In this document: positions 30,961-50,423 of the stretch, piece after piece
Layout: every line of letters begins with the position of its first letter
How positions within the stretch are numbered: position 1 is the stretch's first letter
Origin: Candidatus Buchananbacteria bacterium
Lineage (GTDB): Bacteria > Patescibacteriota > Patescibacteriia > 2-01-FULL-39-33
Length of the DNA stretch: 64,000 nt
Assembly (NCBI GenBank): GCA_041665065.1
Contig: JBAYJM010000003.1
Span: forward strand, 5,183 to 69,182
Reading direction: 5' to 3'
The notes under the pieces: generated by a model
Databases searched by the model: none
Seen by the model: only the letters and a program-made list of their open reading frames with translations
Told to the model about the DNA's origin: nothing
Translations under genes and position numbers: made by a program

Positions 30961-31045
30961 ACATTTACGTCGTTTTTTAATCAAAATCTACTAAAAGAAC
31001 TAGTTAAAGCTATTATATACTAATAATCATTAAAGCATCATTAAT

Positions 31046-31641: not shown

Positions 31642-32430
31642 ATGTCAAAAGCAGCATTTTTTGTTTTATTAATCACCTCAATTATTTTTCTTTTCTACGG
31701 CATACACTTGAGCATAGCCAAACAGAATGAAAATGGCGCCCTGCTCTATCCTCTATATGCCAATGATTTCAAAGCCATAAAAACAGATGTTGTTCAAAAA
31801 ATAGCTAGCATCCCAAAGAATACAAATATTAACGACAAGACAAAACTGATTATACATGACGTAGGATTTATCTCTCAAGCCCCCAGGGGTAATTGGAGCG
31901 ATGCGAGATTGCAGGATGGCTGCGAAGAAGCATCATCGTTAATGGCTTTTAATTGGGCCACAAAACAAAATAACCTAAGTGCGATTAAGGCGGAAGAGAA
32001 AATAGTCAGCATATCAAACTGGGAGAAACAAAAGATTGGCATTTTTAAAGATACCTCGGTACAAGATACTGCCGACAAAATATTGAGCGATAATCTAGGA
32101 TTTAATAATTACGAAGTTAAAAAAGATATTTCCATCAATGATATAAAAAATGAAATTTACAATGGAAATATAATTATAATTCCAGCCGATGGCAGAAAGC
32201 TAAATAACCCAAACTTTCGTCCTCCGGGGCCACTACATCACATGTTGCTGATTATTGGCTATGATCCAGGTAAAAAGGAATTTATTACAAACGATCCCGG
32301 AACAAGACTGGGAGAAAAATATCGCTATAGTGAAAAAATTATAGATAATGCCCTAAGAGACTATCCGACGGGAAACCACCTTAAAACAAACGAGATTAAA
32401 AAAAATATTATTGTTGTAAAACAGCTATAG
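31642..32430 (+). CDS. Membrane-anchored C39-like papain-fold peptidase domain protein, paralog of 11243..12061
   Basis: N-terminal TM. Shared motifs DGCEEASSLMAF (candidate catalytic Cys), NPNFRPPGPLHHMLLIIGYD (His) and ITNDPGTR (Asp). Confidence 0.5.
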   Translation: MSKAAFFVLLITSIIFLFYGIHLSIAKQNENGALLYPLYANDFKAIKTDVVQKIASIPKNTNINDKTKLIIHDVGFISQAPRGNWSDARLQDGCEEASSLMAFNWATKQNNLSAIKAEEKIVSISNWEKQKIGIFKDTSVQDTADKILSDNLGFNNYEVKKDISINDIKNEIYNGNIIIIPADGRKLNNPNFRPPGPLHHMLLIIGYDPGKKEFITNDPGTRLGEKYRYSEKIIDNALRDYPTGNHLKTNEIKKNIIVVKQL

Positions 32431-32505
32431 GACTGCTCATAACCATGGTGAAAGGTGAAAAAACATTTTTACAGAGTGGCCAAACCGCTACTGAACTGCT
32501 ACGAA

Positions 32506-35943: not shown

Positions 35944-35944
35944 A

Positions 35945-37738
35945 TCATTTACTTTGATTTATTTCGGTACTTGTTACTATCCTAACTTCATCACCCTCTT
36001 TGACCAATCTATTGCCTGAAATAATTATTTTAGTATCCAGCGGGAGTGTTGTACTTGCATTAACATTAATTTGAGCATTTTCACCATCCACACCCAACAC
36101 ATTAACAATTTTCTTTTTAGCCCTGCCATTATCATACAAAAATATATAGCTTTCATTTTGTCCCACATTAACTGCGGTTATTGGTATAAATATTGCTCCC
36201 GGCTTATCTGAAACTCTTGTTATTTCAAAAGAAATGGATACTATAATCCCCGGATTGGGCAGATTGGGAACAGACTCGCTTTCAAAATCAGCTTCAACTA
36301 AAAATCTTTTAGTTGTGGCGTCTGCTGATGGAGAGATACTTATAATTATTCCTTTAAAAATATTTCCGTTATTGTCCGTAATGGTGGCGGGCATACCGAC
36401 CTGCAAAGAGTTTATATACGTTTGATCTACATAAGTTTGTATTTTTAACTTTGCCGTCTGACTCATGACTGCGACAACCTGCCCAGGAGAAACCGTATCA
36501 CCGGCTGAGATCATCTTTTGGGTTATTGTTCCAGAAATCGGAGCCTTGATTGTTAAATTATCAACCTGAATTCTGCTTAAATTCATCTGTCCGGCCAACA
36601 AATCAACTTGGCTTTGAGCACCATCAACCTGAGTTTTTCCGGCTGCCAAAACATTATTTAAATTTTGAGCCGCCGCATTTTCCTGTTGCTTTGCCAATTC
36701 ATATGCTTTCTGCAAACTGTCTATAGTTGAACTATTACTTAACTGGGTGTTTGATAAAGCCTGCTTAGCGCCATTAATTTGACCCAAAGCACCATTTATC
36801 TGATTTTGATAAGCAGACACCGCTGCTTGCAAACCCGATAATGATGAACCGCTCGCAGAACTCTGCGGCAAATCAGTTGAAGTAATTGTATTTTGCAATA
36901 ATACCTGAGTTGCATTTACCAACTGTTGGACTGATGTAGCCAAATCTTTTACCGCATCAACTTTATCGCCAACACTGGAAAAGGTTTTGCCTTGATATGA
37001 TTTCAATTTGTTATTAGCTGTCAAAAAGCTGCTCTTGGCATTAGATAATGATTCGCTGTTTAAAGCTCCTAAATTTTTCTCATAACTAACAGAGACCTCA
37101 TTGTTCTCATTAAAGCCAGTTATGTTATTTATGCCTACAACGATAGAAGAGCTTATTCCCGCAACACTATCGGCTGTAACATCAGCATTTGTGACAATAT
37201 CATCTTCTGATTGACTAGAAATATTTTTTCTATTTTCCAACGAAAGCCTTGCCTGTTCTGTGGCAATTTTAGACGTATCATAGGCTATTTGCGCCGATTT
37301 AAATGACTGTTCTGATGTATTGGCAATATTTTGTTTGGAAATAAGGGCATTGCCCAGTGCAGTTACTGTATTTTGATAATTCGCTTTTGCCGGATTTGCA
37401 TCTACGCTATCGATTCTTGCAAGCACCTGGTCAGAAAAAATTTTATCTCCCACCTTAAAATCCAATCCTGAAATATTTCCCGAACCTTTTGAAACTATTT
37501 TTACCTCTTGGTCAGAAACCACCAAGCCCGGATATCTAACTGTTTGTTTTAAAACTCCCCTATCGGCCATAGTTACAATACTTACCTCCTTAATGGCGAC
37601 AATGGTATCTTGACCTACACCCTGTTTATTATTTTTTAAAGCAAAAACAAAAATAACAATAATTAAAATAATAACTACTATTATTCCAACAAGGACTTTA
37701 AATTTGTGCTTTTTGATACTAACAGAAAATTTTGACAT
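35945..37738 (-). CDS. Efflux periplasmic adaptor (membrane fusion protein, HlyD/AcrA-like) with an unusually long coiled-coil
   Basis: N-terminal TM. Biotinyl/lipoyl-like hairpin halves. Coiled-coil of about 300 aa, rich in Ser/Asn/Gln. C-terminal beta-barrel. Stop is 2 nt before the RND start. Confidence 0.7.
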   Translation of the reverse strand: MSKFSVSIKKHKFKVLVGIIVVIILIIVIFVFALKNNKQGVGQDTIVAIKEVSIVTMADRGVLKQTVRYPGLVVSDQEVKIVSKGSGNISGLDFKVGDKIFSDQVLARIDSVDANPAKANYQNTVTALGNALISKQNIANTSEQSFKSAQIAYDTSKIATEQARLSLENRKNISSQSEDDIVTNADVTADSVAGISSSIVVGINNITGFNENNEVSVSYEKNLGALNSESLSNAKSSFLTANNKLKSYQGKTFSSVGDKVDAVKDLATSVQQLVNATQVLLQNTITSTDLPQSSASGSSLSGLQAAVSAYQNQINGALGQINGAKQALSNTQLSNSSTIDSLQKAYELAKQQENAAAQNLNNVLAAGKTQVDGAQSQVDLLAGQMNLSRIQVDNLTIKAPISGTITQKMISAGDTVSPGQVVAVMSQTAKLKIQTYVDQTYINSLQVGMPATITDNNGNIFKGIIISISPSADATTKRFLVEADFESESVPNLPNPGIIVSISFEITRVSDKPGAIFIPITAVNVGQNESYIFLYDNGRAKKKIVNVLGVDGENAQINVNASTTLPLDTKIIISGNRLVKEGDEVRIVTSTEINQSK

Positions 37739-37750
37739 AACAATTTGGAA

Positions 37751-38344
37751 TTAAATATTTTTTATATTATTTAAAATTAAATCTATATATTTATCTCTTG
37801 TTTCCGTTTTAGTAAAATCTACTCCCCAAAATTTATAGGCATATTGGCCAATAACCAATGGGTGCACAATTGAAGAAAATAACTGAAAAACCTTCATATT
37901 TATTATTTCCTGATCTTTAATGTCGGTTAATTCTCCAATAACCTTATTTAATTTTTGATAATTATCTTTCATAATCTGCATTAAAGCGGAGGGAAGGGCT
38001 TCATCTTTAATCATTTTTAAAACAGACCCCCTGAAAGCATCCGGACAACATAAATAATGATGGATAAATTCTTTTATAAATTTAATCAGCCGCTCCTGCG
38101 CCGATAATTTTTTATCCGATAACACAGCAAAAGATTTATCAAATTTTTCCATCAAGTAGCCGATCGCTTCATTAATGATGTTTTCCTTTGAGCCATAATG
38201 ATAGTTAATAGCCGCAACGTTGACATCTGCCAACTTCGCTATTTTTCTAATAGAAATACCAGCCAAACCTTCCGTTTTTATAATTTGGAGGGTAGCCTCG
38301 ATTATCCTTTCTTTGGCCTTTTTTTCTAATTTTATGTCTTTCAT
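37751..38344 (-). CDS. TetR/AcrR-family transcriptional repressor
   Basis: N-terminal HTH (IIEATLQIIKTEGLAGISIRKIAKLADVNVAAINYHYGSKENI). 197 aa. First gene of the efflux operon. Confidence 0.85.
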   Translation of the reverse strand: MKDIKLEKKAKERIIEATLQIIKTEGLAGISIRKIAKLADVNVAAINYHYGSKENIINEAIGYLMEKFDKSFAVLSDKKLSAQERLIKFIKEFIHHYLCCPDAFRGSVLKMIKDEALPSALMQIMKDNYQKLNKVIGELTDIKDQEIINMKVFQLFSSIVHPLVIGQYAYKFWGVDFTKTETRDKYIDLILNNIKNI

Positions 38345-38356
38345 TTGGACAATTTA

Positions 38357-38403
38357 AAACAATGTTTGAAATCACATTTTACCATTATTTTTGAATTTGT
38401 CAA
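38357..38403 (-). promoter_or_regulatory. Candidate promoter (TTGACA, 16 nt spacer, TAAAAT) and an 11-bp palindrome AAACAATGTTT that may be the TetR operator
   Basis: On the minus strand, -35 lies at 38398-38403 and -10 at 38376-38381. A perfect palindrome at 38357-38367 sits between -10 and the tetR ATG. Confidence 0.4.
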
Positions 38404-38544
38404 TAGACAGCCAATTAACCTAAATTGGCGCAAAACGATGAATAATCAAAATGGATTTAGACGAATAAAAGTTACCCAAATTTTGTGCCTACGAGTTGTC
38501 TAAAAAATTAATAAATTATTTTTTTACCTTATCCCAACACCAAC

Positions 38545-38577
38545 AAAAAACCGCTAAAATATTTTGGCGGTTTTTTG
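38545..38577. terminator. Bidirectional intrinsic terminator downstream of the VOC gene
   Basis: Sequence aaaaaACCGCtaaaatattttGGCGGTtttttt. Confidence 0.75.
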
Positions 38578-38588
38578 TTGGTGTTAAA

Positions 38589-38981
38589 TTACTGCGGTTG
38601 CCAATTTGTCGGCTGCATTATTCCAAACATATTACCCTCAGTATCAGCCGCTCTAATAAACCAGCCAATATCAGGTATTTCCATTTTTTCTCCATTAATC
38701 TTGCCTCCATTTTTCTTTACATTTTCAATCGCCTCATCAATATTTTCGACTGTCATTGTACAATCAAAAGTATTTAAGGGCTTGTCTTTGGGACGCTGAT
38801 ACATCCCACCATTGATTCCGGGGGTTCCTTTCTCACCAGTAGTAAGTCCCCAATAATCCATTCCGCCTTGATCTTTTGTCATCATCTGTTCGATTTTCCA
38901 GCCGAAAGTATTTTCATAAAAAGATTTCGCCCGATTAATATCATCTGCCTGGACTTCAAAATGCATAATACGATTTGGCAT
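38589..38981 (-). CDS. VOC-family (glyoxalase/bleomycin-resistance fold) protein
   Basis: 130 aa. MHFEVQADDINRAKSFYENTFGWKIE matches the VOC N-terminal beta-alpha-beta-beta-beta module. Confidence 0.8.
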   Translation of the reverse strand: MPNRIMHFEVQADDINRAKSFYENTFGWKIEQMMTKDQGGMDYWGLTTGEKGTPGINGGMYQRPKDKPLNTFDCTMTVENIDEAIENVKKNGGKINGEKMEIPDIGWFIRAADTEGNMFGIMQPTNWQPQ

Positions 38982-39092: not shown

Positions 39093-39854
39093 TTATAATT
39101 TAAAATCTGCTTTAACACTCTTAATGGCATCGGATACCGTACTCATGAATTGCGCTGGGAAAATTATGGTTGAATTTTTTTCTACGCTGATTTCCGCCAT
39201 TGTTTGAAGTGTCCTAAGTTGCAGGGCAACAGGATGAGCCGAAATAATATCAGCGGCTTCGCCTAATTTTACTGCGGCTTGGAATTCACCTTCAGCAGCT
39301 ACAATTTTAGCTCTACGTTCTCTCTCAGCTTCAGCTTCCTTAGCCATCGCCCTTTGCATGTTGTCAGGCAAAGTAATATCTTTTATTTCTACTGCAGTTA
39401 CCTGCGCCCCCCATGGTTCAGTATGGGCATCAATAACATTTTTAATCTGATCATTGATATCGGAGGTTTGTGACAATAATTGATCCAAGCTGAATCTTCC
39501 AACAACATTTCTTACCGTTGTTTGGCTGATCTGATTTACAGCCTGGTAAACATTTTCAATGGCGATTACTGCCTTAGTCGGATCAACTATATGATAATAG
39601 GCCACAGCCGCGATATCAATAGACACATTATCCTTGGTGATTATTTTCTGTGATGGAATATCCATAGTAACCGTCCTAAGCGGAACTCGTGACATCTGTT
39701 CAAAAATAGGAATTAAAAAAATAAGACCAGGACCCCTTACGCCCGTGTATTTTCCTAAAAAGAAAATAACGCCTCTCTCATATTGTTTGACAACCCTAAG
39801 CGATGAAAAAATTACAATAATGGCGATTACAACTATGATCCAAAATATTGTCAT
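39093..39854 (-). CDS. SPFH/band-7 (stomatin/HflC-like) membrane protein
   Basis: N-terminal TM. SPFH core. C-terminal coiled-coil [21 protein letters not shown]. Confidence 0.85.
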
Positions 39855-40049: not shown

Positions 40050-41354
40050 ATGAAAATATCGCAAAAAAGCAACTCCGGATTAATTATTATTTTAATATTA
40101 GCGCTCTTGCCTATTTTACTGTGGCTGATTTTCCCAGCGCCATTGCCACGCTTTAGCAGTTTAACAATTGGCCTATCAAATATCGGCCAGATATTTGGAC
40201 TGGTCGGCGCATCCCTTTTTGCCATTAACCTGATTCTTTCCGCCAGGTTTAAATCTTTAGAAAAAATTTTTAACGGATTAAACGGGGTTTATTTGCAACA
40301 TGACCAATTAGGACAAATTGCTTTGATGCTCCTTTTATTTCATCCACTGTTACTAATTCCAAAATATGCAAGCGGATCATTTGTAAATGCTGCCCTTTTT
40401 TTATTACCGAGTGCAAACATAGCAATAAATTTAGGAATCTACTCGCTAGCTTTGATGATTTTTTTAATTATTCTGACTCTTTACTTAAGGCCAAAATATA
40501 ATATTTGGAAATGGACGCATAAATTTTTGGGACTTGCTTTCTTTTTGGCTTCGATTCATATTTGGCTCATTCCAAGCGATATTTCTAGAAATATACCGCT
40601 TAGAACTTACATGCTAGGCTTGTCAATAATTGCAATACTTTGTTTCATTTACAAATCACTTTTGGGCAACATTTTTATTAAGAAATTTGAATATATTGTT
40701 ACTGAAATAAAATTATTAAATGATTCTACTGTAAAAATAACCATGAAATCCAACAGCAAACAGTTGACCTTTTCAGCGGGTCAATTTATTTTTGTCAGTT
40801 TTCAAAGTGAGATCAGTTCTGAAAGCCATCCTTTTACAATATCATCGAGTCCGGATGAAAAAGAATTAATTATTACTGCTAAAAATCTCGGCGATTACAC
40901 AAAAAAGTTAGCTAATCTCAAAATTGGCACTATAACAAAAATTGAAGGTCCATTCGGAGTTTTTTCTTATAAAAATTCCGGACACAAAAATCAAATCTGG
41001 ATTGCCGGAGGAATTGGAATCACGCCATTTTTAAGCATGATTAAAACCTTACAACAGAACGACAACCATAATATTGATTTGTATTATTGTACTAGAAATG
41101 AAAGTGAAATCATATATCCTGATTTTCTAAAAAACATCTCTTCAAGCTTGAATAACTCACTTAGAATTATTAACCACTATTCCGATAGCCAAGGATTTAT
41201 TAATGCTGATATTATCAAAAAAATGTCCGTGGATTTGATAGATAAAGATCTATTTATTTGCGCTCCACCGCCAATGATCAGATCACTGAAAAAACAATTT
41301 ATTGCCAAAGGCGTAAATAAAAAATTCATCTATTCCGAAGAATTTAATTTTTAA
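40050..41354 (+). CDS. Ferric-reductase / NADPH-oxidase-like transmembrane flavocytochrome (FRD, FAD and NAD domains)
   Basis: Six-TM ferric-reductase domain with paired His. HPFTISSSP FAD-binding motif typical of the NOX/FRE family. GGIGITPFLSMIK NAD(P)H-binding Gly-rich motif. CAPPPM near the C-terminus. Confidence 0.75.
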   Translation: MKISQKSNSGLIIILILALLPILLWLIFPAPLPRFSSLTIGLSNIGQIFGLVGASLFAINLILSARFKSLEKIFNGLNGVYLQHDQLGQIALMLLLFHPLLLIPKYASGSFVNAALFLLPSANIAINLGIYSLALMIFLIILTLYLRPKYNIWKWTHKFLGLAFFLASIHIWLIPSDISRNIPLRTYMLGLSIIAILCFIYKSLLGNIFIKKFEYIVTEIKLLNDSTVKITMKSNSKQLTFSAGQFIFVSFQSEISSESHPFTISSSPDEKELIITAKNLGDYTKKLANLKIGTITKIEGPFGVFSYKNSGHKNQIWIAGGIGITPFLSMIKTLQQNDNHNIDLYYCTRNESEIIYPDFLKNISSSLNNSLRIINHYSDSQGFINADIIKKMSVDLIDKDLFICAPPPMIRSLKKQFIAKGVNKKFIYSEEFNF

Positions 41355-41361
41355 ATATCTT

Positions 41362-41847
41362 ATGAAAAAAATAACTTTATTAGTTTTAGTATTTTTCGCC
41401 GGTGCTGTAGTGGCAATATATGGGCTTGGAATTATATTTGCAAACCAGAATTCAATATCTGCCACAAACACATTATCAGACCCCACGAATATAAATAATA
41501 AAACTCAACCAAATAATAATTCAACGAGCAGCCAGCCAGCAATCTCTAGTAATAATTCTAATAAACCGGTATCCAAAACAAAAATTAATCAGCCAACTAC
41601 TCCGCCGAAAAGCCAACCAGCGCTAAATGCTACAGAAATTTCTAAACACTCTTCGGCAAATGATTGCTATTTAATTGTAAAAAATAAAGTCTACAATGTT
41701 TCAAGCTACATAGGCTCCCACCCCGGAGGACGAAACAAAATAACTTCAAATTGCGGAACTGAAGTAACCGGCATATTCGCGCAAATCCATTCAAATTTTG
41801 CTTGGAATTTATTAAATAAATATTATATTGGTGATGTTATAAAATAA
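41362..41847 (+). CDS. Membrane-anchored cytochrome b5-like haem-binding domain protein
   Basis: N-terminal TM. Asn/Ser/Thr/Pro-rich linker. C-terminal NDCYLIVKNKVYNVSSYIGSHPGG (cytochrome b5 HPGG motif). Start is 8 nt after the reductase stop. Confidence 0.65.
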   Translation: MKKITLLVLVFFAGAVVAIYGLGIIFANQNSISATNTLSDPTNINNKTQPNNNSTSSQPAISSNNSNKPVSKTKINQPTTPPKSQPALNATEISKHSSANDCYLIVKNKVYNVSSYIGSHPGGRNKITSNCGTEVTGIFAQIHSNFAWNLLNKYYIGDVIK

Positions 41848-41865
41848 ATTTAGCAATTCTTAATT

Positions 41866-42600
41866 TTACAAATATTTTAATCTAGTATTTTTATTAATCG
41901 CCGGGTTCTCTATTTTATACTCAGGATGAATTTTAGCCCATTTGGAAATATCAGTCCACTTAAGTCCATGAAACCCGAATTGCCCGTCCCAAGTGAAATG
42001 CAAACGATCCTCTGATTCAAAACTAAACTGCTTCGCCAACTTAACTGGCGCAAACTTTATCCCATTGTCTTCAAATAATTTACGATAATACACGCAGATA
42101 GCAACGTCTTCCGGATTATATCTTTCAATCGTGCCTTTTTTTATTAATTTTGAAGTTAGGGAGAGTAATTTTTTACTTCGCAAGCTGAATCCGCCATTAC
42201 CAACCACTAACTTGCTCATTAATTCCGGCGGAAAATCAAAATTTTTAACAGACCAATCAGCGACTAGCCAAGGCGCGCCAATATAATCGTATTTTAAAAA
42301 TTCATCTGTCCAGACTTTTGAATTAAGAATAAAACCATCATATTGGACTATCAATACATACTCAGTTTCAACGTATTTATCTAACTCTTCAAGAACAAAA
42401 CGAGAATATTTTTCCACTGAATTCAAAGGTTTGATTTTTACAACATTTTTCAATTTACTTGCCTTTAAAGATGTCAGCAATTTTACATTTGCAAACTCAA
42501 AATCTTTTTGACAAATTTCTATAGCCAAAGAGAGCCTTTGCGCATCAACGCAATCAATTCCCAGCAATGTGACTGTTTCTAATTTTCTTTTATGCTTCAT
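41866..42600 (-). CDS. Hypothetical cytoplasmic protein
   Basis: 244 aa. No secretion signal and no recognisable catalytic motif. Confidence 0.4.
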   Translation of the reverse strand: MKHKRKLETVTLLGIDCVDAQRLSLAIEICQKDFEFANVKLLTSLKASKLKNVVKIKPLNSVEKYSRFVLEELDKYVETEYVLIVQYDGFILNSKVWTDEFLKYDYIGAPWLVADWSVKNFDFPPELMSKLVVGNGGFSLRSKKLLSLTSKLIKKGTIERYNPEDVAICVYYRKLFEDNGIKFAPVKLAKQFSFESEDRLHFTWDGQFGFHGLKWTDISKWAKIHPEYKIENPAINKNTRLKYL

Positions 42601-42978
42601 GTTTTTGGGACCTCTTAATAAATTATCCTAAGACCATTTAATATATTAACTTAAAAATCTATAAGTAAGCCAAATTCCTAATATTCCGCTAATGGCTCCG
42701 CAAATTATGGAAATAAAGGAAAAAGTGTTTACTCCAAAAATAACCGGTGCGTATCCTCCGATAGTTGACCTATAATCATACCAAGTATTATCATTTTTTT
42801 ATCCATATTTTATATTATATATTTTTTATATCTTAAAAGCCATTAATTTTAAATATTAGAATAAATTCCCCTATTTTAAATATAAGGCTAAATAGCATTA
42901 ACAATAACAATATATTGACAAACGATAAATGATAGATTATTATAAATATAACTTTCAATTAATTAAGTAAAATAATTT

Positions 42979-43443
42979 ATGAAACAAAGTTCAACATTAT
43001 TTTTAAAAGGCGTTATTGTTCTTCTTGGGATTATAATTCTTGGTTTGTGCGTTTTTTTGCTACCATTAGGAATTTTATCAGACAAGACAGGATACTATCG
43101 TCCTCTCTTAATGGGTTTGTATATTCCGGCTATTCCATTTTTTATGGCACTATACCAATCTCTAAAGTTATTAAACTCCATTGATAAAAAGAAGGCATTC
43201 TCAGAATCATCAACTAAAGCTTTAGGCAAAATAAAATATTGCGCAATCATTATTAGCATATTATTTGCTGTAGGCATGCCATACATTTTTTACGTTGGGG
43301 ATAGAGATGATGCGCCCGGTGTCGTAGCAATTGGGTTTGTTATTATTTTTGCTTCAATTGTAATAGCCACTTTTGCTGCTGTGCTGCAAAAACTTTTACA
43401 AGAAGTTCTGGAAATAAAAGCAGAAAACGACTTAACTGTATAA
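42979..43443 (+). CDS. DUF2975-like small multi-TM membrane protein
   Basis: 154 aa with four TM helices. It is immediately followed by a short XRE HTH gene, which is the usual DUF2975 gene-pair arrangement. Confidence 0.5.
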   Translation: MKQSSTLFLKGVIVLLGIIILGLCVFLLPLGILSDKTGYYRPLLMGLYIPAIPFFMALYQSLKLLNSIDKKKAFSESSTKALGKIKYCAIIISILFAVGMPYIFYVGDRDDAPGVVAIGFVIIFASIVIATFAAVLQKLLQEVLEIKAENDLTV

Positions 43444-43453
43444 AAATAAAAAT

Positions 43454-43666
43454 ATGGCAATTATAATAAATATAGATGTGATGCTTGCTAAAAGAAAAAT
43501 GAGCGTCACTGAACTTACAGAAAAAGTTGGAATAACGATGGCTAATATTTCAATTTTAAAAAATGGAAAAGCAAGAGCAATTCGACTATCAACACTAGAA
43601 GCGATTTGCAGGGCTTTGGATTGCCAGCCTGGAGATATTATTGAATACAAGAAAGGGAAAAATTAA
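43454..43666 (+). CDS. XRE-family (Cro/CI-type) HTH transcriptional regulator, short form
   Basis: 70 aa. MSVTELTEKVGITMANISILKNGKARAIRLSTLEAICRAL is a canonical HTH_XRE. Confidence 0.8.
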   Translation: MAIIINIDVMLAKRKMSVTELTEKVGITMANISILKNGKARAIRLSTLEAICRALDCQPGDIIEYKKGKN

Positions 43667-43686
43667 ATTAAATATATATTATATGA

Positions 43687-44001
43687 AATGCAAAAAAACA
43701 ACCGCCAGGCAAAGAAGCATATATTCGTGAGGAAGATTTAACTGATCAACTAATCAAACTGATTGATAAAATAGATATTGATCAATTAAAAACTCAAAAA
43801 AGAATTAAAGAAGAAATGGATAGATATCAAAAATTTACCAAAAATATTTTAGGAATGAATAGCAAATTTAAGATGCCAGAGATTGATATGAAAGATTATG
43901 CCAGATATGTATTGTCTGATGGGACAAGAGAGGAGAAAAGAGAGTTACTTAATTGTCTGGATACACAATTACAATTAAAAGAGCAAAAAATTTATGTATA
44001 A
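43687..44001 (+). pseudogene. Probable 3' remnant of a degraded gene. The open frame has no credible start, and only its last 61 codons form an ATG-initiated ORF.
   Basis: The frame is open from 43687 (NAKKQPPGKEAYIREEDLTDQLIKLIDKIDIDQLKTQKRIKEEMDRYQKF...) to the stop at 44001. No RBS or start sits at the head of the frame. It lies inside the tRNA-adjacent islet. Confidence 0.3.
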
Positions 44002-44059
44002 TTATTTCCACAAACAAAAAATTAAATATTTTTAGAAATATTACCTTTAGAAATTATAA

Positions 44060-46417
44060 TTATGCAATATCGACTACCACTTCTCCTATGGATACTCCCC
44101 AAACTTCCATTATAAACTTATCAATATCTGCCCGCTCTACTACTTGGTACATCATTGCTTCAGCATCATTTCTAATACGTAAGGTGCCGTTCATTCTCTC
44201 TCTTTCATAATCTGATTTCCATTTCGATAATTCACGAAAAAGTTGGTCGTGATGAGGCAATCCCATTATATTGTGGTTGCGAGGGTCAAAGTCAGCAGGC
44301 AAACCAGGCGGCAGATTAGTGAGATGTTTGGTGAAATAATTTACTTCAAACTCTTTAATTTTTACTTTAAAGTTAGCAACTATATCAGTCCACCCTTTTT
44401 TCAGTGCGAGAATACCAAGATAGCACGCTTTCTCTAATACTCTTGGCTGGTCATATCCATACCCGCTTGTCGTCTTTTCAAGCGTGTGTTTAGTAAGTCC
44501 GTAAAGTGCATCAATACAGTCCTGCACCAATTTTTTATCTTCCAATCTCACGGCTACTAATATGCCAGTTTTTGCGACGCTATCAGTTAGTGTATTAAAT
44601 TGATTTGAGCTGCCGTCAAATTTATCGGCGTGATGAGCAAACCAGCTTGGCAGATGTATATTCCAATCAAGGCGCGTTTTAAGTTCCTTAACATTATCTT
44701 TGAACTCATTATTTTGTATTAAATCAACTATAAGATTATTGATATTAAAAAGAAGTCGCCCAATGCTGTCGGTAAGAATCGTATCACAACTTTTCACTTG
44801 TTCAGATAGGGTTCGTAAACTCATATTTACTTCGCGAAATAACTGAATTAGGTCGGCTTGATACCTTTCTTTTTCTCTCGTTTCAATAATTCGTGCATAT
44901 TGGTTCATTATTATATTGAGAACCTGATAGAACTCATCATACCCCTTACTCCAACTGAACTGAGTGGTTATGTCGTTTGACAATAACCCAGCATTAACAA
45001 ATGTATTGATATAATTGGAAATAATAGCAACATTTTTCAAAGCATCATTAAAATGAGTACGCCTGTCCATAAGAGAGTTTGTAAATACAGACCCTATAAC
45101 ACGAAGAAAGGTCATTGAACACTGATCTACAATAATAAGTTGTTTTTTTGAAAGTCCATAGATAGCAATTTCCATTATCTTTTCTAATAACCCGTGCATT
45201 GTTAGCGAAAGACCTTTTTCGGATGCTATAGTCACTGTATCACCCAATACTTGAAGACCCTGAAAAACTACCTCAATATTTTCTGCCCTCTTACCACTTT
45301 CAATAAAAAAGTTTAAATTACTAACGAGTAAATCTAATATAGGATTTTCATTCCGTTGGCTAACAAATTGGATTTCTTGCGCTTTTTTAATAAGAGCACG
45401 GTATACATCAATCACATAGGTTGCAAGCTCATCCTTTCCTTCTTTAATAAACTTTTCTCCCGCTTTATTTAATCTTTCACAGTTATGATATAAAAAACTT
45501 TGACTATCGCTTTCTACGGCAAGAAACACTACTCCAGATGGTAAAATAAGCGATGATGTTTTTCGAGCTTCAAAAAATTGAGAAATTATTTTATAAACCG
45601 CAGTAAATCCTCGCTTTGTTGTGCCGACTTCTTGTTTGTCTCCTAACTTCATTGCTATCTCAACCAGATTTTCCAGTTGCCTGTCAAGATTGACGATAAA
45701 AGGTTGAAGCACTCGATTGTACGCGGCCGCAAGAGCAATTCCCTCTGTAACATTATTGTCTTTGGCTCGCATAATGCCAGCAATTTGTTTAGCGTCATAT
45801 TGAACTCGTTTTAAAAAATGCAAACCCTCACTTTCTAAAAAAATTATTGCATTTGAAGGGTTTAGTTTTCTTCGCACATTTTTATATTGCCAATCAATAA
45901 GGGCAAAAACGAGTCCGATTATAACAAGGGAATAAAATACGATATTAGAAGAAATATTTTCTGAAACGCTTGATAGACTACCAACATATAACCCACTTCC
46001 AAATAATGCAATAGTAATAATAATTACAAGATAATAAACAAATTTTTCTCTCCAATCATGCACATATATTTCGAAGTATTGGGATGAGTAGAGGTCGGAT
46101 GCGTTTTGAAGTAAAAAAATTGAAATAGTAAAAACGATAGCAATTGTTCCTCCTGCCATAGCGCCTGCTGCTACAAGATAATTACTTAATATGTCTTGAG
46201 TGAAAGCTGCACCACCGAATCTATGCACAAAATAACCCATAACGATCGTAACCAAAATAAAAGATGCCTGTCTAATTAAATCAAAATGTTTTTTAAGAAA
46301 AGCGACAAATCTCCTCCATCTATTAATGTATAACCAAAAAAACATCCGATAATCATATTGGGCATATTGGATTCCTTTTTTTATTTGTATGTTTAATTTA
46401 GCTAATAATTCTTTCAT
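44060..46417 (-). CDS. Large orphan membrane-anchored protein: four or five N-terminal TM helices and a cytoplasmic alpha-rich domain of about 580 aa with unknown function
   Basis: 785 aa uninterrupted ORF. No recognisable enzymatic motif. Apparently monocistronic. It lies between tRNA-Asn and the gene remnant. Confidence 0.6.
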   Translation of the reverse strand: MKELLAKLNIQIKKGIQYAQYDYRMFFWLYINRWRRFVAFLKKHFDLIRQASFILVTIVMGYFVHRFGGAAFTQDILSNYLVAAGAMAGGTIAIVFTISIFLLQNASDLYSSQYFEIYVHDWREKFVYYLVIIITIALFGSGLYVGSLSSVSENISSNIVFYSLVIIGLVFALIDWQYKNVRRKLNPSNAIIFLESEGLHFLKRVQYDAKQIAGIMRAKDNNVTEGIALAAAYNRVLQPFIVNLDRQLENLVEIAMKLGDKQEVGTTKRGFTAVYKIISQFFEARKTSSLILPSGVVFLAVESDSQSFLYHNCERLNKAGEKFIKEGKDELATYVIDVYRALIKKAQEIQFVSQRNENPILDLLVSNLNFFIESGKRAENIEVVFQGLQVLGDTVTIASEKGLSLTMHGLLEKIMEIAIYGLSKKQLIIVDQCSMTFLRVIGSVFTNSLMDRRTHFNDALKNVAIISNYINTFVNAGLLSNDITTQFSWSKGYDEFYQVLNIIMNQYARIIETREKERYQADLIQLFREVNMSLRTLSEQVKSCDTILTDSIGRLLFNINNLIVDLIQNNEFKDNVKELKTRLDWNIHLPSWFAHHADKFDGSSNQFNTLTDSVAKTGILVAVRLEDKKLVQDCIDALYGLTKHTLEKTTSGYGYDQPRVLEKACYLGILALKKGWTDIVANFKVKIKEFEVNYFTKHLTNLPPGLPADFDPRNHNIMGLPHHDQLFRELSKWKSDYERERMNGTLRIRNDAEAMMYQVVERADIDKFIMEVWGVSIGEVVVDIA

Positions 46418-46582
46418 TCAAAATAAACTTCTTAATTTTTTTCCTATCTCATTTTTTCATGATGGCTAATTTTTTATAATATTAACACCTTACTCCAGAA
46501 AAGTAAATTTAGCCGATTGTCGGTCTAGAACCAAAACGACCGGCTTCCATACAGGAAGTCGGTCGTTTAGAAAATATCGTCT

Positions 46583-46657
46583 TGGCTCAGCGAACAGGAC
46601 TCGAACCTGTAACCTACCGGTTAACAGCCGGTTGCTCTACCATTGAGCTATCGCTGA
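46583..46657 (-). tRNA. tRNA-Asn (anticodon GUU), with encoded CCA
   Basis: Reverse complement reads TCAGCGATAGCTCAATGGTAGAGCAACCGGCTGTTAACCGGTAGGTTACAGGTTCGAGTCCTGTTCGCTGAGCCA. Anticodon loop CTGTTAA. Confidence 0.85.
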
Positions 46658-46784
46658 ATATTTTAATAAAAAAGAACCTACTCGATTCAGTGGTAATATT
46701 ATCAAATTAGCCCACTATTGTCAATTTGGAGATAGATCCTGAATCAAGCCTGCCTGCCGGTAGGCGGGGAAATAATACCATCTT

Positions 46785-48053
46785 TTAAAAATCTCTTAAC
46801 TTTTCAACACCCTTTATTTTCTCTATTTTTTCTAAAGCCTTTGCCTCAATCTGCCTGATACGTTCACGAGTAACATCAAATTCCTGTCCTACTTCTTCAA
46901 GCGTATGAGCAACGCCATCTTTAAGGCCAAATCGCATTTCCAAAACTTTTTGTTCGCGAGGCGTCAATTCAGAAATTACTTGAGAAACATAATCGCGCAA
47001 AATCTGAAGCGCGGCAACTCTATCCGGAGTTATTGTTTTTTGATCTTCGATAAAATCTTCCAAAATACTATCCTCACTGTCATCGCCAACCGGAGTTCCA
47101 AGCGAGATAGTTTCTTGAGAAATTTTTATAATATGATTAACCTTATCAATATCCTCTCCCATTTCTGCTGCAATTTCTTCAGGCATTGGTTCACGACCCA
47201 AGTCCTGCACCAAGCGCCTTTCAATCTGCTGGAATTTATTGATATTTTCAACCATATGAACAGGAATACGGATTGTCCTGGATTGATCAGCCAAAGATCT
47301 TGTAATCGCCTGCCTTATCCACCAAGTCGCATAGGTTGAAAATTTATAACCACGATGATAATCAAATTTGTCCGCACCTCTAAACAATCCAATATTGCCC
47401 TCCTGAATTAAATCTAAGAGCGACATATTCTTCCCGGTAAATTTCTTGGCGATAGAAACAACAAGCCTTAAATTGGACTTGATTAATTTTTGCCTAGCTT
47501 CAATATCACCTCTTTCAATTCTTTTAGCTAAGGAAATTTCCTCTTCTGTCGTAAGCAATGGCACCTTGCCAATCTCCCTTAAATACATCTGGATTGAATC
47601 AGCTGAGATATCTGTTAAGTCCATATCCGGAAGAACTTTTGATTTTGCCCCTTTTTTCTGTGGCACCACTTCCACCGCTTTTGAAAGAAGGAATCCTTTT
47701 TGCTCCTCAACTCTTATGTTGGCATGATCCATTTCTTCTAAAAATTCTTCATACCTATCAACATACTCTTCCAAATCCGGAAAAGCCATCAGTATTTCCT
47801 GCTCAATAACAAAACCGCGCATCCTGCCTTTTTTGATCAATGACTGTATTGACTCTTCACTTACTTCAAATTGTGTTTTGAGGAATCGACTAACCTTGGC
47901 TTTTGGCTTTATTGGCGCTTTTGGCTTTTTGTCATTTTTAACTTTTTTAACAGCTAAAGCTTTTGGAATCTTTTTTGCCTTAAAGCTGGCTTTCTTTTTA
48001 ACCACAAAGTGCTTCTTCCCCTTTTTAGGTGTTGCTTTTTTTTCTTTTGGCAT
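46785..48053 (-). CDS. rpoD: RNA polymerase primary sigma factor RpoD with a Lys/Ala/Pro-rich basic N-terminal extension
   Basis: Regions 2 to 4 are conserved ([13 protein letters not shown], and region 4.2 [24 protein letters not shown]). The N-terminal roughly 60 aa are highly basic ([24 protein letters not shown]...). Confidence 0.95.
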
Positions 48054-48180: not shown

Positions 48181-50022
48181 TTAATTGAGTAGCGCTCTGC
48201 GCCTGATATATTCATTAAGTTCTGAATATATGCTTTCAAGTTTTTGGCGGTCGGATTTTTGCTCCGCCTCTTCCAATTGCGCTTTAAGCGCAGTTATTTT
48301 GGAATTTATGTAATCCGCTTTTAATATATTTATAAAATTTGCCAATTCTTCCCTAATTTCCTTATCACTCAGCCTTGATGACTCATTTTGCGACAATAAA
48401 AATGACTCTTCCAAAAATACCTTAAATTCATAATCAGGGCCTTGATCGTCCAACAACCCATTTAAAGAGTCAAATAGGTCAAAAGTGGTGCCCTGATCGC
48501 TAGCACTATTAAACGAATCGATGTTTTTAGTATAGTACATTATGAATTTTTTGTAAAGAATATCCAACTCACCCTGGAACATATCCGTTGGTAATTCGTC
48601 TATTAATTTTTGGGCAAAATTAGGAAAAATAAATAGGATAGAAAAAATTCTTTGTAAAATAAGATAATTTTTCTCTTTTTTATTCTCCCTCTTAACTATT
48701 AGATTACTATTAACCGTATTTATGACCCTATTATTTTGTTTTATTTTCCCTTTTGGAAATGATTCCCACAATACCTTTTCTGAAACAGAAATTTTATCCG
48801 AAAGTTTTTTAAGCCAAAATTCCTGATCTATTTTATTTGGCAAGCCTATAATTTTTGCCAAATAGTACTTGGCAACATTTTTTTTGTTTTCCGGCAGAGA
48901 TAAATCATTGTCACTGATTGCTCTGTCTAAAAAATATTGCATGATAGGTTTGGCTTCCTCAATCGCCCTTTTCCAGTCTTGAGGATTATTGGTTGCGCAC
49001 TCGCCAGGATCCTTGCCGTAGGGTAAAGTGATAACACTGACATTCATTTCATTTTGCAGTGCTAAATCAGCGCTTCTCTCGGCTGCGTTTTGGCCAGCCA
49101 AATCCATGTCCAAAGCAAGAGCCAAATTTGTAGTAAACCTTTTGATTAAAACTATCTGCTCCTGGGTTAACGCCGTACCGGATATTGATGCGACATTTTT
49201 TATTCCTGCTTGATGTGAAGGAATCACATCCATATAACCTTCAACCAAAATGCATAAATTATTTTTTTTAATATAATTTTTTGCCAGGTTCAATCCAAAT
49301 AAAACCGCGCTTTTATTATATGTTTCGCTTTGGGGGCTATTAATGTATTTAGCCTGTTCTTCCTTGTTTAAAGTTCTACCGCCGAAGCCGACAATTCTAC
49401 CGTGAATATCTGAAATAGGAAACATTATTCTACCCCTGAACCTATCATAAAATCCAGACGCGCCATTTCTTTTGACGGTTAAGCCTGCGGAAAACAATTC
49501 TCGATCGCTGAAATTCTTTTTTTTCAAAAAATTGATTAAATTATCCCATTGATCAATTGAATAGCCAATTTTAAAATCTATAATTGACTCCTCAGTTATT
49601 TTTCTATCAATTAAATAATCTTTGGCGGCTTTGGCCTGAGTGGAATCAAGCAAAATTTTATGCCAGTAACGTGCGGTTAAGTCTAAAATTTTAAGCATTA
49701 TATCATTTTGAGAATCTTTTTTTATGTCGCTAGGCTGATAATCAGGCAAAACGACGCCCGTTCTTTTGGCCAAAAGCTTCAATGCTTCACCGAATTCTAT
49801 ACCCTCTACCTTCATAAAAAAACTAAAAAGATCCCCGCCCTCGCCACAGCCAAAACAACGCCAAATCTGTTTTGACTGATTAACCATAAATGACGAAGTT
49901 TTTTCATTATGAAAAGGACAAAGGCCTTTGTGATTGGCCCCTGCCGGATTTAATTTGACATACTCACCAACCAAATCAACAATGTCAATTCTGGATTTTA
50001 TTTCATCAACTTCTCGACTCAT
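48181..50022 (-). CDS. dnaG: DNA primase
   Basis: CHC2 zinc finger (CPFHNEKTSSFMVN...CFGCGEGGD). TOPRIM (ILVEGYMDVI). The start is set at MSREVDEIKSRIDIV because the longer ORF overlaps dfx. Confidence 0.9.
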   Translation of the reverse strand: MSREVDEIKSRIDIVDLVGEYVKLNPAGANHKGLCPFHNEKTSSFMVNQSKQIWRCFGCGEGGDLFSFFMKVEGIEFGEALKLLAKRTGVVLPDYQPSDIKKDSQNDIMLKILDLTARYWHKILLDSTQAKAAKDYLIDRKITEESIIDFKIGYSIDQWDNLINFLKKKNFSDRELFSAGLTVKRNGASGFYDRFRGRIMFPISDIHGRIVGFGGRTLNKEEQAKYINSPQSETYNKSAVLFGLNLAKNYIKKNNLCILVEGYMDVIPSHQAGIKNVASISGTALTQEQIVLIKRFTTNLALALDMDLAGQNAAERSADLALQNEMNVSVITLPYGKDPGECATNNPQDWKRAIEEAKPIMQYFLDRAISDNDLSLPENKKNVAKYYLAKIIGLPNKIDQEFWLKKLSDKISVSEKVLWESFPKGKIKQNNRVINTVNSNLIVKRENKKEKNYLILQRIFSILFIFPNFAQKLIDELPTDMFQGELDILYKKFIMYYTKNIDSFNSASDQGTTFDLFDSLNGLLDDQGPDYEFKVFLEESFLLSQNESSRLSDKEIREELANFINILKADYINSKITALKAQLEEAEQKSDRQKLESIYSELNEYIRRRALLN

Positions 50023-50036
50023 ACCTGATTCAATTT

Positions 50037-50423
50037 TTATGCCTTCCAAAGTCCATGCAAATTGCAATATTCTCTTACAATATATTCCTCTTTCGCTAAA
50101 GCTTCGGCGGGCAAAGCAAATTCTGCTTCCGGAGCATCGCCTGGCCTTAGATATTTTCTTAATACTTCATCGCCGGCAATTACTTCAATCCATTCTATAT
50201 AATGGGATTCTTCCATTGGATGAGCAACTGAGCCGACTTTAACTTTTATGCCAGTTGCGGTTTTTTCAACTACCGGCACATGCTTTTCCTGTGAGGCATC
50301 GACGGTATTAACTTTTTGAAGTTGCATCGGCTGTCCGCAACACACCAAACCACCACCACCAACATGGACTAACTCAACAATATTTCCGCATGATTCGCAT
50401 TTGTATATTTGGTTTATTTCCAT
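50037..50423 (-). CDS. dfx: Desulfoferrodoxin (2Fe superoxide reductase)
   Basis: N-terminal desulforedoxin CESCGN...CCGQPM. C-terminal SOR centre HVPVVE...H..E..H...C (EYCNLHGLW). Confidence 0.85.

What the first reader, a model, noticed from the sequence alone, without database searches (positions are those of the whole stretch)
42601..46660. tRNA-Asn-adjacent islet carrying a DUF2975 plus XRE pair, a gene remnant and a 785-aa orphan membrane-anchored protein
A block of about 4 kb lies immediately 3' of tRNA-Asn. It contains, in order: a 378-nt AT-rich non-coding stretch; a DUF2975-like four-TM protein with a 70-aa XRE repressor (a pair often found with phage-related or defence cargo); an open frame with no start (43687-44001) that looks like the 3' end of a destroyed gene; and a monocistronic 785-aa protein with a four or five TM N-terminus and a cytoplasmic alpha-helical domain of about 580 aa with no recognisable motif. 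A 15-bp near-perfect inverted repeat (AAACGACCGGCTTCC ... GGAAGTCGGTCGTTT, 46520-46556) lies between the tRNA and the large gene. tRNA 3' ends are classic integration sites, and a degraded integrase-like remnant plus a regulatory pair fits a decayed mobile island. The large orphan protein could be defence or abortive-infection cargo, or another accessory function. I found no direct repeat of the tRNA 3' end, so the boundaries are unproven.
Basis: partly seen in the sequence, partly recalled or inferred. Interest (0 to 1): 0.6.

Follow-up and report, generated by a model that had tools for sequence, protein, structure and literature searches.

The report
Decayed tRNA-Asn islet, membrane cargo gene
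Next to a tRNA-Asn gene in a Candidatus Buchananbacteria genome lies the wreck of a mobile element: a serine-recombinase gene stump plus an intact 785-aa membrane protein from a large uncharacterised family that travels with integrases, restriction systems and a prophage, so it may be a phage-exclusion or defence gene.

Summary
The window comes from a Candidatus Buchananbacteria (Patescibacteria) contig.

- **Remnant.** The start-less frame 43687-44001 is the C-terminal ~100 aa of a large serine recombinase. It is 56% identical to a full-length 442-aa enzyme that sits right after tRNA-Asn in a sister genome.
- **Synteny.** dnaG-rpoD-tRNA-Asn is conserved in the 80 relatives fetched. None carries the islet genes there.
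- **Inverted repeat.** It lies at 46534-46568, not 46520-46556. It is the conserved tRNA terminator hairpin, not an att site.
- **The 785-aa protein is not an orphan.** It has 119 full-length homologues and 320 clusters at 50% identity. It has four TM helices of DUF2254 type and a cytoplasmic alpha-solenoid with no specific fold match. Its homologues sit beside Ser or Tyr recombinases, RM systems, a Gabija-like gene pair, or just after a prophage lysis module.
- **DUF2975-XRE.** This is an autonomous two-gene cassette, common in Patescibacteria, and was not linked to mobile elements in the three contexts sampled.

Best reading: a decayed integrative element whose surviving cargo is a candidate membrane-anchored exclusion or defence protein. 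That function is inferred, not shown.

The parts
46583..46657 (-). tRNA-Asn (GTT), a core gene downstream of dnaG-rpoD. It marks the edge of the variable block.
   Evidence: ARAGORN and Rfam tRNA at 75 bits. blastn finds a tRNA-Asn match in about 50 of the 80 rpoD loci fetched, downstream of rpoD in nearly all of them.
46534..46568 (-). Hairpin with 15-bp arms and one mismatch, followed by UUUU. It is the terminator-like end of the tRNA-Asn transcription unit and belongs to the core, not to the islet.
   Evidence: The RNA folds at -24.4 kcal/mol, z -4.1. The orthologous L008 sequence folds into the same hairpin (-22.4 kcal/mol, z -4.2) with a different stem sequence. L013 and L015 have clear hairpin plus T-run terminators at the same place. 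The consensus terminator scan did not call it, because the T run is only 4 long.
46479..46507 (-). Promoter-like site TTTACT-17-TG-n-TAATAT, shared with relative L008. Homology to L008 stops right after the -10 box at 46479, so the 785-aa gene now sits behind a promoter that precedes the SPFH gene in L008.
   Evidence: Alignment and blastn L008 11182-11361 = window 46659-46479. It matches only 8 of 12 consensus positions and was not listed by the scan. Its function as a promoter is inferred.
44060..46417 (-). Intact 785-aa cargo gene. The protein has a basic N-terminal helix, four TM helices (DUF2254-type module, roughly residues 50-185) and a cytoplasmic all-alpha solenoid of about 590 aa.
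   Evidence: ORF. AF2 model with pLDDT 85 and pTM 0.74. Homologues. DUF2254 link. No hit in Pfam, NCBIfam, PADLOC or PHROGs for the window protein itself. Contexts.
43687..44001 (+). 3' stump of a large serine recombinase gene (homology 43711-43998). It lies convergent with the 785-aa gene, 58 bp away. The catalytic, Recombinase and Zn-ribbon parts are missing.
   Evidence: tblastn of the L042 442-aa recombinase (Pfam Resolvase+Recombinase+Zn_ribbon_recom) matches its residues 343-440 at 56% identity, E 1e-24. It is reciprocal, E 1e-32. It is the most AT-rich ORF of the region (GC 0.279, z -2.3). No other recombinase piece is found in the 64-kb window.
42895..43666 (+). Autonomous DUF2975 (154 aa) plus XRE/HTH_26 (70 aa) cassette with its own conserved promoter/operator region. 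The XRE stop lies about 20 nt from the recombinase truncation point.
   Evidence: Pfam. More than 3,886 homologues of constant length 154 aa. The same pair occurs in L092-L094 (DUF2975 69-73% and XRE 87-90% identical) with no other shared gene. A conserved TATATTGACAAACGATAAAT motif lies upstream. Promoter scan 11 of 12 at 42915-42943.
42601..42894 (.). AT-rich spacer. It contains a start-less 50-codon TM-like frame at 42646-42798 on the minus strand, possibly a second gene remnant.
   Evidence: Composition and six-frame translation. No homologue was tested, so this is weak.
40050..42600 (.). Rest of the block absent from the closest relative: a ferric-reductase-like flavocytochrome (40050-41354, +), a cytochrome b5 domain protein (41362-41847, +) and a DUF5672 protein (41866-42600, -).
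   Evidence: Pfam. None is found downstream of rpoD in the 80 relatives. The FRE-cyt b5 pair was seen only in L019, on the other side of dnaG. Whether these genes arrived together with the recombinase element is unknown.
39093..39854 (-). SPFH/Band-7 gene, the core flank on the far side. In relative L008 its ATG lies 183 nt after the tRNA-Asn.
   Evidence: 92% amino-acid identity to L008 11490-12188. DNA match window 39803-39105. L008 sequence.

Best explanation
The stretch between tRNA-Asn and the SPFH gene is a mosaic accessory block. Its tRNA-proximal part is the decayed end of an integrative element that used a large serine recombinase. The recombinase gene has lost its 5' three quarters, about 340 codons, so the element can no longer move on its own.

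What survives intact is its cargo, a 785-aa inner-membrane protein with a DUF2254-type four-helix membrane module and a large cytoplasmic alpha-solenoid. It lies convergent with the recombinase stump and is now read from a pre-existing chromosomal promoter just past the tRNA terminator.

Its relatives sit at the integrase-proximal edge of integrative elements, inside RM islands, and after the lysis genes of a phage contig. From this I infer that it is a stand-alone, element-borne protection gene. The solenoid would act as a cytoplasmic binding or sensing platform. The membrane module would act as the effector or gate, either excluding incoming phage or foreign DNA at the membrane or collapsing the membrane in an abortive-infection manner.

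Shown: the anatomy, the recombinase identity, the lack of synteny, the family size, the fold class and the neighbourhood bias. Inferred: promoter capture, the order of events, and the whole defence or exclusion mechanism. The DUF2975-XRE cassette abuts the truncation point but is an independent, self-regulated two-gene module of unknown role.
For: **Recombinase stump**
- It is 56% identical over 98 aa to a full-length Resolvase/Recombinase/Zn-ribbon protein.
- That protein lies 71 bp after a duplicated tRNA-Asn in L042. L035 has a similar stump after its tRNA-Asn.
- L023 has a convergent serine recombinase about 0.45 kb after its tRNA-Asn. By blastn and tblastn coordinates, L010, L055 and L059 have one about 0.5 kb after theirs.
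- In L003, a family-bearing element has a serine recombinase whose stop overlaps a convergent tRNA-Asn.

**Not core**
- None of the 80 rpoD loci fetched has the gene nearby.
- L008 joins the tRNA-Asn directly to the SPFH gene.

**Cargo family**
- 119 full-length homologues and 320 clusters at 50% identity.
- No conserved partner gene.
- DNA homology to other loci stops at the ORF ends.

**Contexts of homologues**
- Type I RM (L001, L088); Dcm+Vsr+HNH (L089); OLD+UvrD, Gabija-like (L088).
- PLD, SNase, PIF1, Fic; Ser and Tyr recombinases.
- A phage contig with tape measure, tail fibres, endolysin, then the gene.
- For a distant member: a CI/S24 repressor, Fic and DUF5131.

**Neighbourhood statistics**
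- In an independent non-redundant set, 12 of 21 loci have a recombinase or RM gene in the flank, against 8 of 74 control loci (Fisher p 3e-5).
- A convergent recombinase lies within 1 kb downstream in 8 loci, as in the window.

**Structure**
- Confident AF2 model with four TM helices plus an alpha-solenoid.
- Cytoplasmic orientation by K/R counts.
- DUF2254 link through member P0264, which scores above the Pfam gathering threshold.

**Literature**
- Horizontally transferred genes in Patescibacteria are enriched in defence functions, and they include RM islands (PMC12455944).
Against: - There is no experimental or homology-based link to any known defence protein: PADLOC gave 0 hits and PHROGs 0 hits.
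- The fold matches are generic helical repeats with TM-score <= 0.26.
- No catalytic or pore motif was recognised.
- The family is well conserved along its whole length, with mean column identity 48%. That is not the pattern expected of a fast-evolving sensor.
- Islet genes are not compositional outliers.
- No att repeats were found.
- With one close relative only, insertion in this lineage cannot be separated from deletion in L008 for the FRE/cyt b5/DUF5672 part.
- The marker panel for the enrichment test was crude. It used tblastn with proteins taken from the first loci, and the controls came from a single locus type.
- The shared promoter is weak by consensus, matching 8 of 12 positions.
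Confidence: 0.55

Rival explanations
1. The islet is a decayed mobile element as above, but the 785-aa protein is not an immunity gene. It is lysogenic-conversion or fitness cargo acting on the cell envelope, for example membrane homeostasis, surface remodelling, or the host-attachment lifestyle of these episymbionts. Alternatively it serves the element itself, for example in anchoring or maintenance.
For: The gene sits in cargo positions where many kinds of accessory genes accumulate. Many neighbourhoods show no recognised defence gene (L006, L090, and many loci). The high sequence conservation fits a housekeeping-like molecular task better than an arms-race sensor. DUF2254 proteins have no known role.
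Against: In several loci the gene is tightly coupled, by overlapping or abutting ORFs, to RM-island or nuclease genes: a 150-aa ORF after type I RM, Vsr, and an AAA_14 ATPase. RM genes are enriched nearby at 6 of 21 loci against 2 of 74 controls.
Confidence: 0.27
2. There was no single island. The block is ordinary chromosomal flux in a plastic region. The recombinase stump is the scar of an unrelated old integration, the 785-aa gene arrived separately or is ancestral, and L008 simply deleted the segment.
For: Composition is unremarkable and no att repeats were found. The neighbouring 27-39 kb is also non-syntenic with L008. The block is a mosaic of unrelated modules: FRE-cyt b5 also occurs elsewhere in L019, and DUF2975-XRE is autonomous.
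Against: The arrangement 'family gene, then a convergent recombinase within 1 kb' recurs in 8 other loci with two unrelated recombinase families. tRNA-Asn recurs near family members (L003, L090, L125). This makes an accidental juxtaposition in the window less likely.
Confidence: 0.13
3. The 785-aa protein is a core housekeeping membrane protein of Patescibacteria.
For: It is intact, well conserved, and widespread in the phylum.
Against: It is absent within 10 kb of rpoD in all 80 relatives, and no synteny is seen anywhere. Its neighbours differ in every locus. It occurs on a phage contig. Host loci range from 29% to 57% GC.
Confidence: 0.03

Closest known systems
tRNA-flanking integrative elements and prophage remnants with cargo ('moron' or lysogenic-conversion genes) between the att site and the integrase gene, e.g. 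the gtr genes of P22/Sf-type phages (from my own knowledge, not tested here)
   Same: The islet lies next to a tRNA gene. An integrase gene lies convergent with a stand-alone cargo gene at the element edge. It is absent from a close relative. The cargo family is also seen after a prophage lysis module.
   Different: The integrase is a serine recombinase, not a tyrosine one, and only its last ~100 codons remain. No att repeats were found. The junction lies about 105 bp past the tRNA, after its terminator and a promoter, and not inside the tRNA.
Large serine recombinases (Pfam Resolvase + Recombinase + Zn_ribbon_recom; phage integrases and transposases of the phiC31/Bxb1/TnpX kind)
   Same: The stump aligns with the C-terminal tail of a bona fide member, the L042 442-aa protein. 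Such enzymes need no long direct repeats, which fits the missing repeat (that point is from my own knowledge).
   Different: All three defining domains are deleted in the window, so it is a pseudogene fragment. The use of the tRNA-Asn flank as a recurrent target is inferred from sister genomes, not shown.
DUF2254 (PF10011), predicted membrane proteins of unknown function
   Same: The N-terminal four-TM module matches profile positions 9-168. One distant family member passes the Pfam gathering threshold, and 18 of 57 close members give weak hits.
   Different: The window protein itself gives no DUF2254 hit at E <= 0.1. The C-terminal half of DUF2254 (profile 169-368) is replaced by an alpha-solenoid of about 590 aa. 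The proteins are about 800 aa long, against about 400 aa (length from my own knowledge).
Single-gene or membrane-effector phage exclusion and abortive-infection proteins, e.g. lambda RexB (4 TM), prophage Sie proteins, and TM effectors of CBASS and related systems (from my own knowledge)
   Same: It is a membrane-anchored, stand-alone protein carried by prophages and islands, sitting next to RM systems.
   Different: There is no sequence or fold similarity to any of them: PADLOC 0 hits, Foldseek nothing specific. It is far larger, with a helical-repeat cytoplasmic domain. No phenotype is known.
DUF2975 (YoaS-like) membrane protein plus HTH_26/XRE (YozG-like) two-gene cassette
   Same: Both Pfam domains are met, the gene order and spacing are the same, and a conserved upstream motif is present.
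   Different: Nothing differs; it is a regular member. Its presence says nothing about mobility or defence in the contexts sampled.

Membership tests
tRNA-associated genomic island / integrative element | Lies directly beside a tRNA gene | tested here: met
   The variable block starts about 105 bp after the tRNA-Asn 3' end.
tRNA-associated genomic island / integrative element | Encodes a site-specific recombinase | tested here: inconclusive
   Only a C-terminal stump of a serine recombinase is present. No catalytic domain is found anywhere in the window.
tRNA-associated genomic island / integrative element | Absent from the same site in related genomes | tested here: met
   None of the 80 rpoD loci has the islet genes. 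L008 joins tRNA-Asn to the SPFH gene.
tRNA-associated genomic island / integrative element | Flanking att or direct repeats | tested here: not met
   Only short AT-rich chance repeats were found. Long repeats are not expected for serine recombinases (my own knowledge).
tRNA-associated genomic island / integrative element | Atypical base composition | tested here: not met
   Gene GC and GC3 lie within about 1.1 sd of the window mean. Only the stump is an outlier, at z -2.3.
Large serine recombinase | Resolvase catalytic domain, Recombinase domain and Zn-ribbon | tested here: not met
   No Pfam hit on the 104-aa frame. The homology covers only residues 343-440 of the 442-aa L042 enzyme. It is a fragment of a member, not a functional member.
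Large serine recombinase | Homology to the C-terminal tail of a verified member | tested here: met
   56% identity over 98 aa, E 1e-24 and 1e-32. The partner is verified by Pfam.
DUF2254 (PF10011) | N-terminal four-TM module matching the profile | tested here: inconclusive
   The window protein gives no hit. 18 of 57 homologues give weak hits, best 1.8e-5. Distant homologue P0264 (phmmer E 4e-22 to the window protein) scores 37.1 bits against a gathering threshold of 28.8, on profile 9-168.
DUF2254 (PF10011) | C-terminal half of the profile (169-368) | tested here: not met
   No member matches beyond profile position 168. The model shows an alpha-solenoid there.
Known anti-phage defence systems (PADLOC-DB v2) | Match to any defence protein model | tested here: not met
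   0 families at E <= 1 for the 785-aa protein, the DUF2975 protein, the stump and the DUF5672 protein. The XRE gives only generic HTH hits.
DUF2975 + XRE (HTH_26) cassette | Both Pfam domains in adjacent co-directional genes | tested here: met
   PF11188 at 130 bits and PF13443 at 88.5 bits. The same pair occurs in L092-L094.
Intrinsic (rho-independent) terminator | Stable GC-rich hairpin followed by a U run | tested here: inconclusive
   The hairpin folds at -24.4 kcal/mol, z -4.1, and is conserved with stem changes in L008. Only four U follow, and the scan tool did not call it.

The most novel reading that the evidence does not exclude
The 785-aa protein represents a large, unnamed family of stand-alone, membrane-anchored immunity or exclusion proteins. 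The family has at least 320 clusters at 50% identity and combines a DUF2254-type 4-TM module with an alpha-solenoid. Prophages and integrative elements would spread it among Patescibacteria and beyond. It would be a new class of defence gene in a phylum thought to rely mostly on restriction-modification.
Probability: 0.35. Interest if true: 0.65.

Novelty: new member of a known kind. Interest (0 to 1): 0.45.

Why it matters
The islet itself is an ordinary kind of object, a decayed integrative element beside a tRNA.

Its value lies in what it points to. The family has at least 320 clusters at 50% identity, a confident predicted structure, no annotation and no solved relative. It consistently occupies the cargo slot next to integrases, inside RM islands, and after a phage lysis cassette. 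Patescibacteria have small genomes, mostly lack CRISPR, and are thought to defend themselves chiefly with RM systems (PMC12455944). A widespread single-gene membrane defence would change that picture, and it is directly testable by heterologous expression.

The work also identifies tRNA-Asn downstream of rpoD as a recurrent landing site for serine-recombinase elements in Buchananbacteria.

Tried and rejected
- NCBIfam, PADLOC and PHROGs scans of the 785-aa protein, the stump and the DUF5672 protein found nothing useful.
- A word-indexed homology search with the 104-aa stump returned only itself. Its identity came from tblastn against sister loci instead.
- A profile search of PDB sequences found only designed helical repeats, E >= 0.03.
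- Foldseek of the full model against PDB and BFVD gave generic HEAT/ARM/TPR-like hits with TM-score <= 0.26.
- A separate model of the TM module alone (pLDDT 77) gave no PDB hit, E >= 0.95.
- I tested the idea of a conserved ~185-aa downstream partner and rejected it. The downstream ORFs of five loci are unrelated to each other and absent from the window.
- GenBank phage and PLSDB plasmid collections gave no tblastn match.
- Cluster look-ups of distant members returned no names or taxa.
- Repeat searches for att-like sequences found only AT-rich chance matches.
- An Rfam scan of the islet found only the tRNA.
- Composition gave no island signal.
- I rejected the inverted repeat as an att site or island boundary, because L008, which lacks the islet, has the same hairpin.

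Full report
**Source and layout.** The 785-aa protein is identical to a hypothetical protein of a Candidatus Buchananbacteria MAG, on a 72.6-kb contig. On the minus strand the order is:
- dnaG (48181-50067);
- rpoD (46785-48053);
- tRNA-Asn(GTT) (46583-46657);
- a hairpin;
- the 785-aa ORF (44060-46417).

Then follow, on the plus strand unless stated:
- a start-less frame (43687-44001);
- XRE (43454-43666);
- DUF2975 (42979-43443);
- a 378-nt spacer at about 23% GC;
- DUF5672 (41866-42600, minus strand);
- a cytochrome b5 protein (41362-41847);
- a ferric-reductase-like protein (40050-41354);
- an SPFH/Band-7 gene (39093-39854, minus strand).

Its arms are at 46534-46548 and 46554-46568.

**The hairpin is core, not island.** On the tRNA strand it starts 15 nt after the tRNA and folds at -24.4 kcal/mol (z -4.1). 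It is followed by UUUU. The closest relative, L008, has the same hairpin (-22.4 kcal/mol, z -4.2) with a different stem sequence. Other relatives have textbook terminators at that spot. It is therefore the terminator of the tRNA unit.

**The remnant is a serine recombinase stump.**
- The profile libraries and the word-indexed protein search gave nothing.
- tblastn of window proteins against 80 rpoD loci of relatives showed the frame matching DNA just downstream of tRNA-Asn in L042 and L035, in the same relative orientation.
- In L042 the match is the tail of a 442-aa protein with Resolvase, Recombinase and Zn-ribbon domains. It covers residues 343-440 at 56% identity, E 1e-24 (reciprocal E 1e-32).
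- That gene ends 71 bp after the second of two tRNA-Asn copies. It is followed by a block of about 50% GC in a genome of 32-40% GC.
- L035 has a comparable stump.
- L023 has a convergent serine recombinase about 0.45 kb past its tRNA-Asn. By blastn and tblastn coordinates, L010, L055 and L059 have one about 0.5 kb past theirs.
- In the window only the last ~100 codons survive. The break lies within about 20-45 nt of the XRE stop codon. No other recombinase fragment is in the 64 kb.
- The stump is the most AT-rich ORF of the region.

**Synteny.** dnaG-rpoD is conserved in nearly all the fetched loci that reach far enough, and blastn finds a tRNA-Asn match in about 50 of the 80. None has the 785-aa gene, DUF2975, XRE or DUF5672 downstream. 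L008 has an rpoD 87% identical. Its DNA homology to the window runs through the tRNA, the hairpin and a promoter-like TTTACT-17-TGnTAATAT, up to window 46479. It resumes in the SPFH gene, which is 92% identical at protein level. In L008 the SPFH ATG lies 183 nt after the tRNA. Relative to L008 the window therefore carries about 6.6 kb extra (about 39.86-46.48 kb). The 785-aa gene sits behind the promoter-like site that precedes SPFH in L008; that it is transcribed from it is an inference. The extra block is a mosaic. The FRE-cyt b5 pair has its only relative in L019, on the other side of dnaG.

**DUF2975-XRE is an autonomous cassette.**
- It has more than 3,886 homologues of constant size.
- In three distant Patescibacteria the pair recurs (DUF2975 69-73% and XRE 87-90% identical) with no other shared gene.
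- No recombinase or RM gene lies nearby in those three. One locus has a PIF1-type helicase 3 kb away.
- A conserved promoter/operator-like motif lies upstream.

**The 785-aa protein.**
- It has 119 full-length homologues at 31-81% identity. An exhaustive scan found 320 clusters at 50% identity, down to about 21% identity over the full length.
- The window protein hits no Pfam, NCBIfam, PADLOC or PHROG model, and nothing in PDB by sequence.
- The AF2 model is confident (pLDDT 85, pTM 0.74). It shows a long basic N-terminal helix, four TM helices, and an all-alpha solenoid from residue 187 to about 775 with a few tiny beta-hairpins.
- K/R counts place both termini in the cytoplasm.
- Foldseek finds only generic helical-repeat proteins. 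The TM module alone finds nothing.
- 18 of 57 homologues weakly hit DUF2254. A distant member passes the gathering threshold on profile positions 9-168. The membrane module is therefore DUF2254-like, while the C-terminal domain is new. DUF2254 has no known function.
- The most conserved parts are TM2 with its cytoplasmic loop, the juxtamembrane IDWQYxxVRxKxNP motif, a beta-hairpin with invariant D304-S305, and several solenoid turns.

**Genomic company of the family.** The first ten non-redundant contexts:
- L001: type I RM plus a tyrosine integrase.
- L003: two serine recombinases, a trypsin-like protease and a PLD. One recombinase stop overlaps a convergent tRNA-Asn.
- L005: PIF1, SNase, trypsin-like protease, Fic.
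- L006: SNase, a His-Xaa-Ser/radical-SAM set, a T4SS coupling protein.
- L007: serine recombinase, PLD.
- L088: type I RM, an AAA_14 ATPase, a convergent serine recombinase 22 nt away, and an OLD+UvrD pair.
- L089: HNH, Dcm, Vsr (overlapping the gene start), a convergent tyrosine integrase.
- L090: serine recombinase, HTH_17, then tRNA-Pro and tRNA-Asn.
- L091: an IMG/VR phage contig with tape measure, baseplate, two tail fibres and endolysin, then the gene.
- L095: a CI/S24 repressor, Fic, DUF5131.

Further points on the neighbourhoods:
- The downstream ~185-aa ORFs are unrelated to each other, and DNA homology stops at the ORF ends. The gene therefore behaves as a single-gene unit.
- In an independent metagenome sample, 12 of 21 non-redundant loci have a recombinase or RM gene in the flank, against 8 of 74 control rpoD loci (Fisher p 2.8e-5). 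The marker panel was crude.
- A convergent Ser or Tyr recombinase within 1 kb downstream occurs in 8 loci. That is the window's own arrangement, with the stump 58 bp away.

**Interpretation.**
- The tRNA-proximal part of the block is the remains of a serine-recombinase integrative element, with its cargo still intact.
- The rest of the block cannot be tied to the same event.
- The cargo's function is inferred from context and architecture: a membrane-anchored exclusion or abortive-infection type protein, with the solenoid as binding platform and the DUF2254-like module as membrane effector.
- Against this: there is no similarity to known defence proteins, no recognisable active site, and rather uniform conservation. 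A non-immune envelope or element-maintenance role remains a serious rival.
- A housekeeping role is very unlikely.

**Verdict.** The object is an ordinary kind of thing (a decayed islet at a tRNA) with a more interesting passenger, and interest is moderate. The family deserves a systematic defence-island score and a phage-challenge test.

Noticed in passing
L010 11496-11779; L011 11686-12027; L012 8903-9173; L016 6843-7220: In four relatives the rpoD-linked tRNA-Asn is split at the anticodon loop by a group I intron (Rfam RF00028, 67-96 bits). ARAGORN therefore missed the tRNA in the three that were scanned (L010-L012). The window's tRNA-Asn has no intron.
   Followed up: yes
L042 1286-1357 and 1577-1650; also L056 and L033: Two tRNA-Asn copies lie in tandem downstream of rpoD (92% identical in L042). 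In L042 they directly precede the full-length serine recombinase. This may be a footprint of integration or an element-borne tRNA copy.
   Followed up: partly
L003 11400-13019; L090 11230-11418; L125 3715-3789: tRNA-Asn recurs near other members of the 785-aa family. In L003 the stop of a serine recombinase gene overlaps a convergent tRNA-Asn 2.5 kb from the family gene. With the window that makes 4 of about 33 loci, more than expected for a single tRNA species.
   Followed up: partly
window 42909-42928 (and L092-L094, about 60 bp upstream of DUF2975): A TATATTGACAAACGATAAAT motif overlapping the -35 box is conserved upstream of DUF2975 in four distant Patescibacteria. It is a likely promoter plus operator for the XRE partner. 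A 21-nt direct repeat (42846-42866 and 42873-42893) lies just upstream in the window.
   Followed up: partly
window 42646-42798 (-): A start-less 50-codon frame encodes a TM-like peptide (…GYAPVIFGVNTFSFISIICGAISGILGIWLTYRFLS*) inside the 'non-coding' AT-rich stretch. It may be a second gene remnant.
   Followed up: no
window 40050-41847; L019 5658-7213: The ferric-reductase-like flavocytochrome plus cytochrome b5 pair has its only relative among the 80 loci in L019 (56-61% amino-acid identity). There it lies on the other side of dnaG, so the pair looks like a mobile two-gene redox module.
   Followed up: partly
window 27263-38981: The next 12 kb encodes an ECF sigma factor, a fasciclin protein, a T4SS-type pilin, a C39-like peptidase, a TetR-HlyD-AcrB efflux set and a glyoxalase. 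It is also non-syntenic with L008, so the whole 27-46.5 kb zone is plastic, with SPFH as a conserved anchor.
   Followed up: partly
L042 4000-6400: A block of about 50% GC sits in a 32-40% GC genome just beyond the tRNA-Asn-adjacent recombinase. It is probably foreign cargo of that element.
   Followed up: no
L001 7552-8004: A 150-aa ORF overlaps the start of the family gene after a type I RM operon. By eye it has a D…E-C-K pattern (GVDIKV…WLIECKG) suggestive of a PD-(D/E)XK nuclease. It has no Pfam hit.
   Followed up: no
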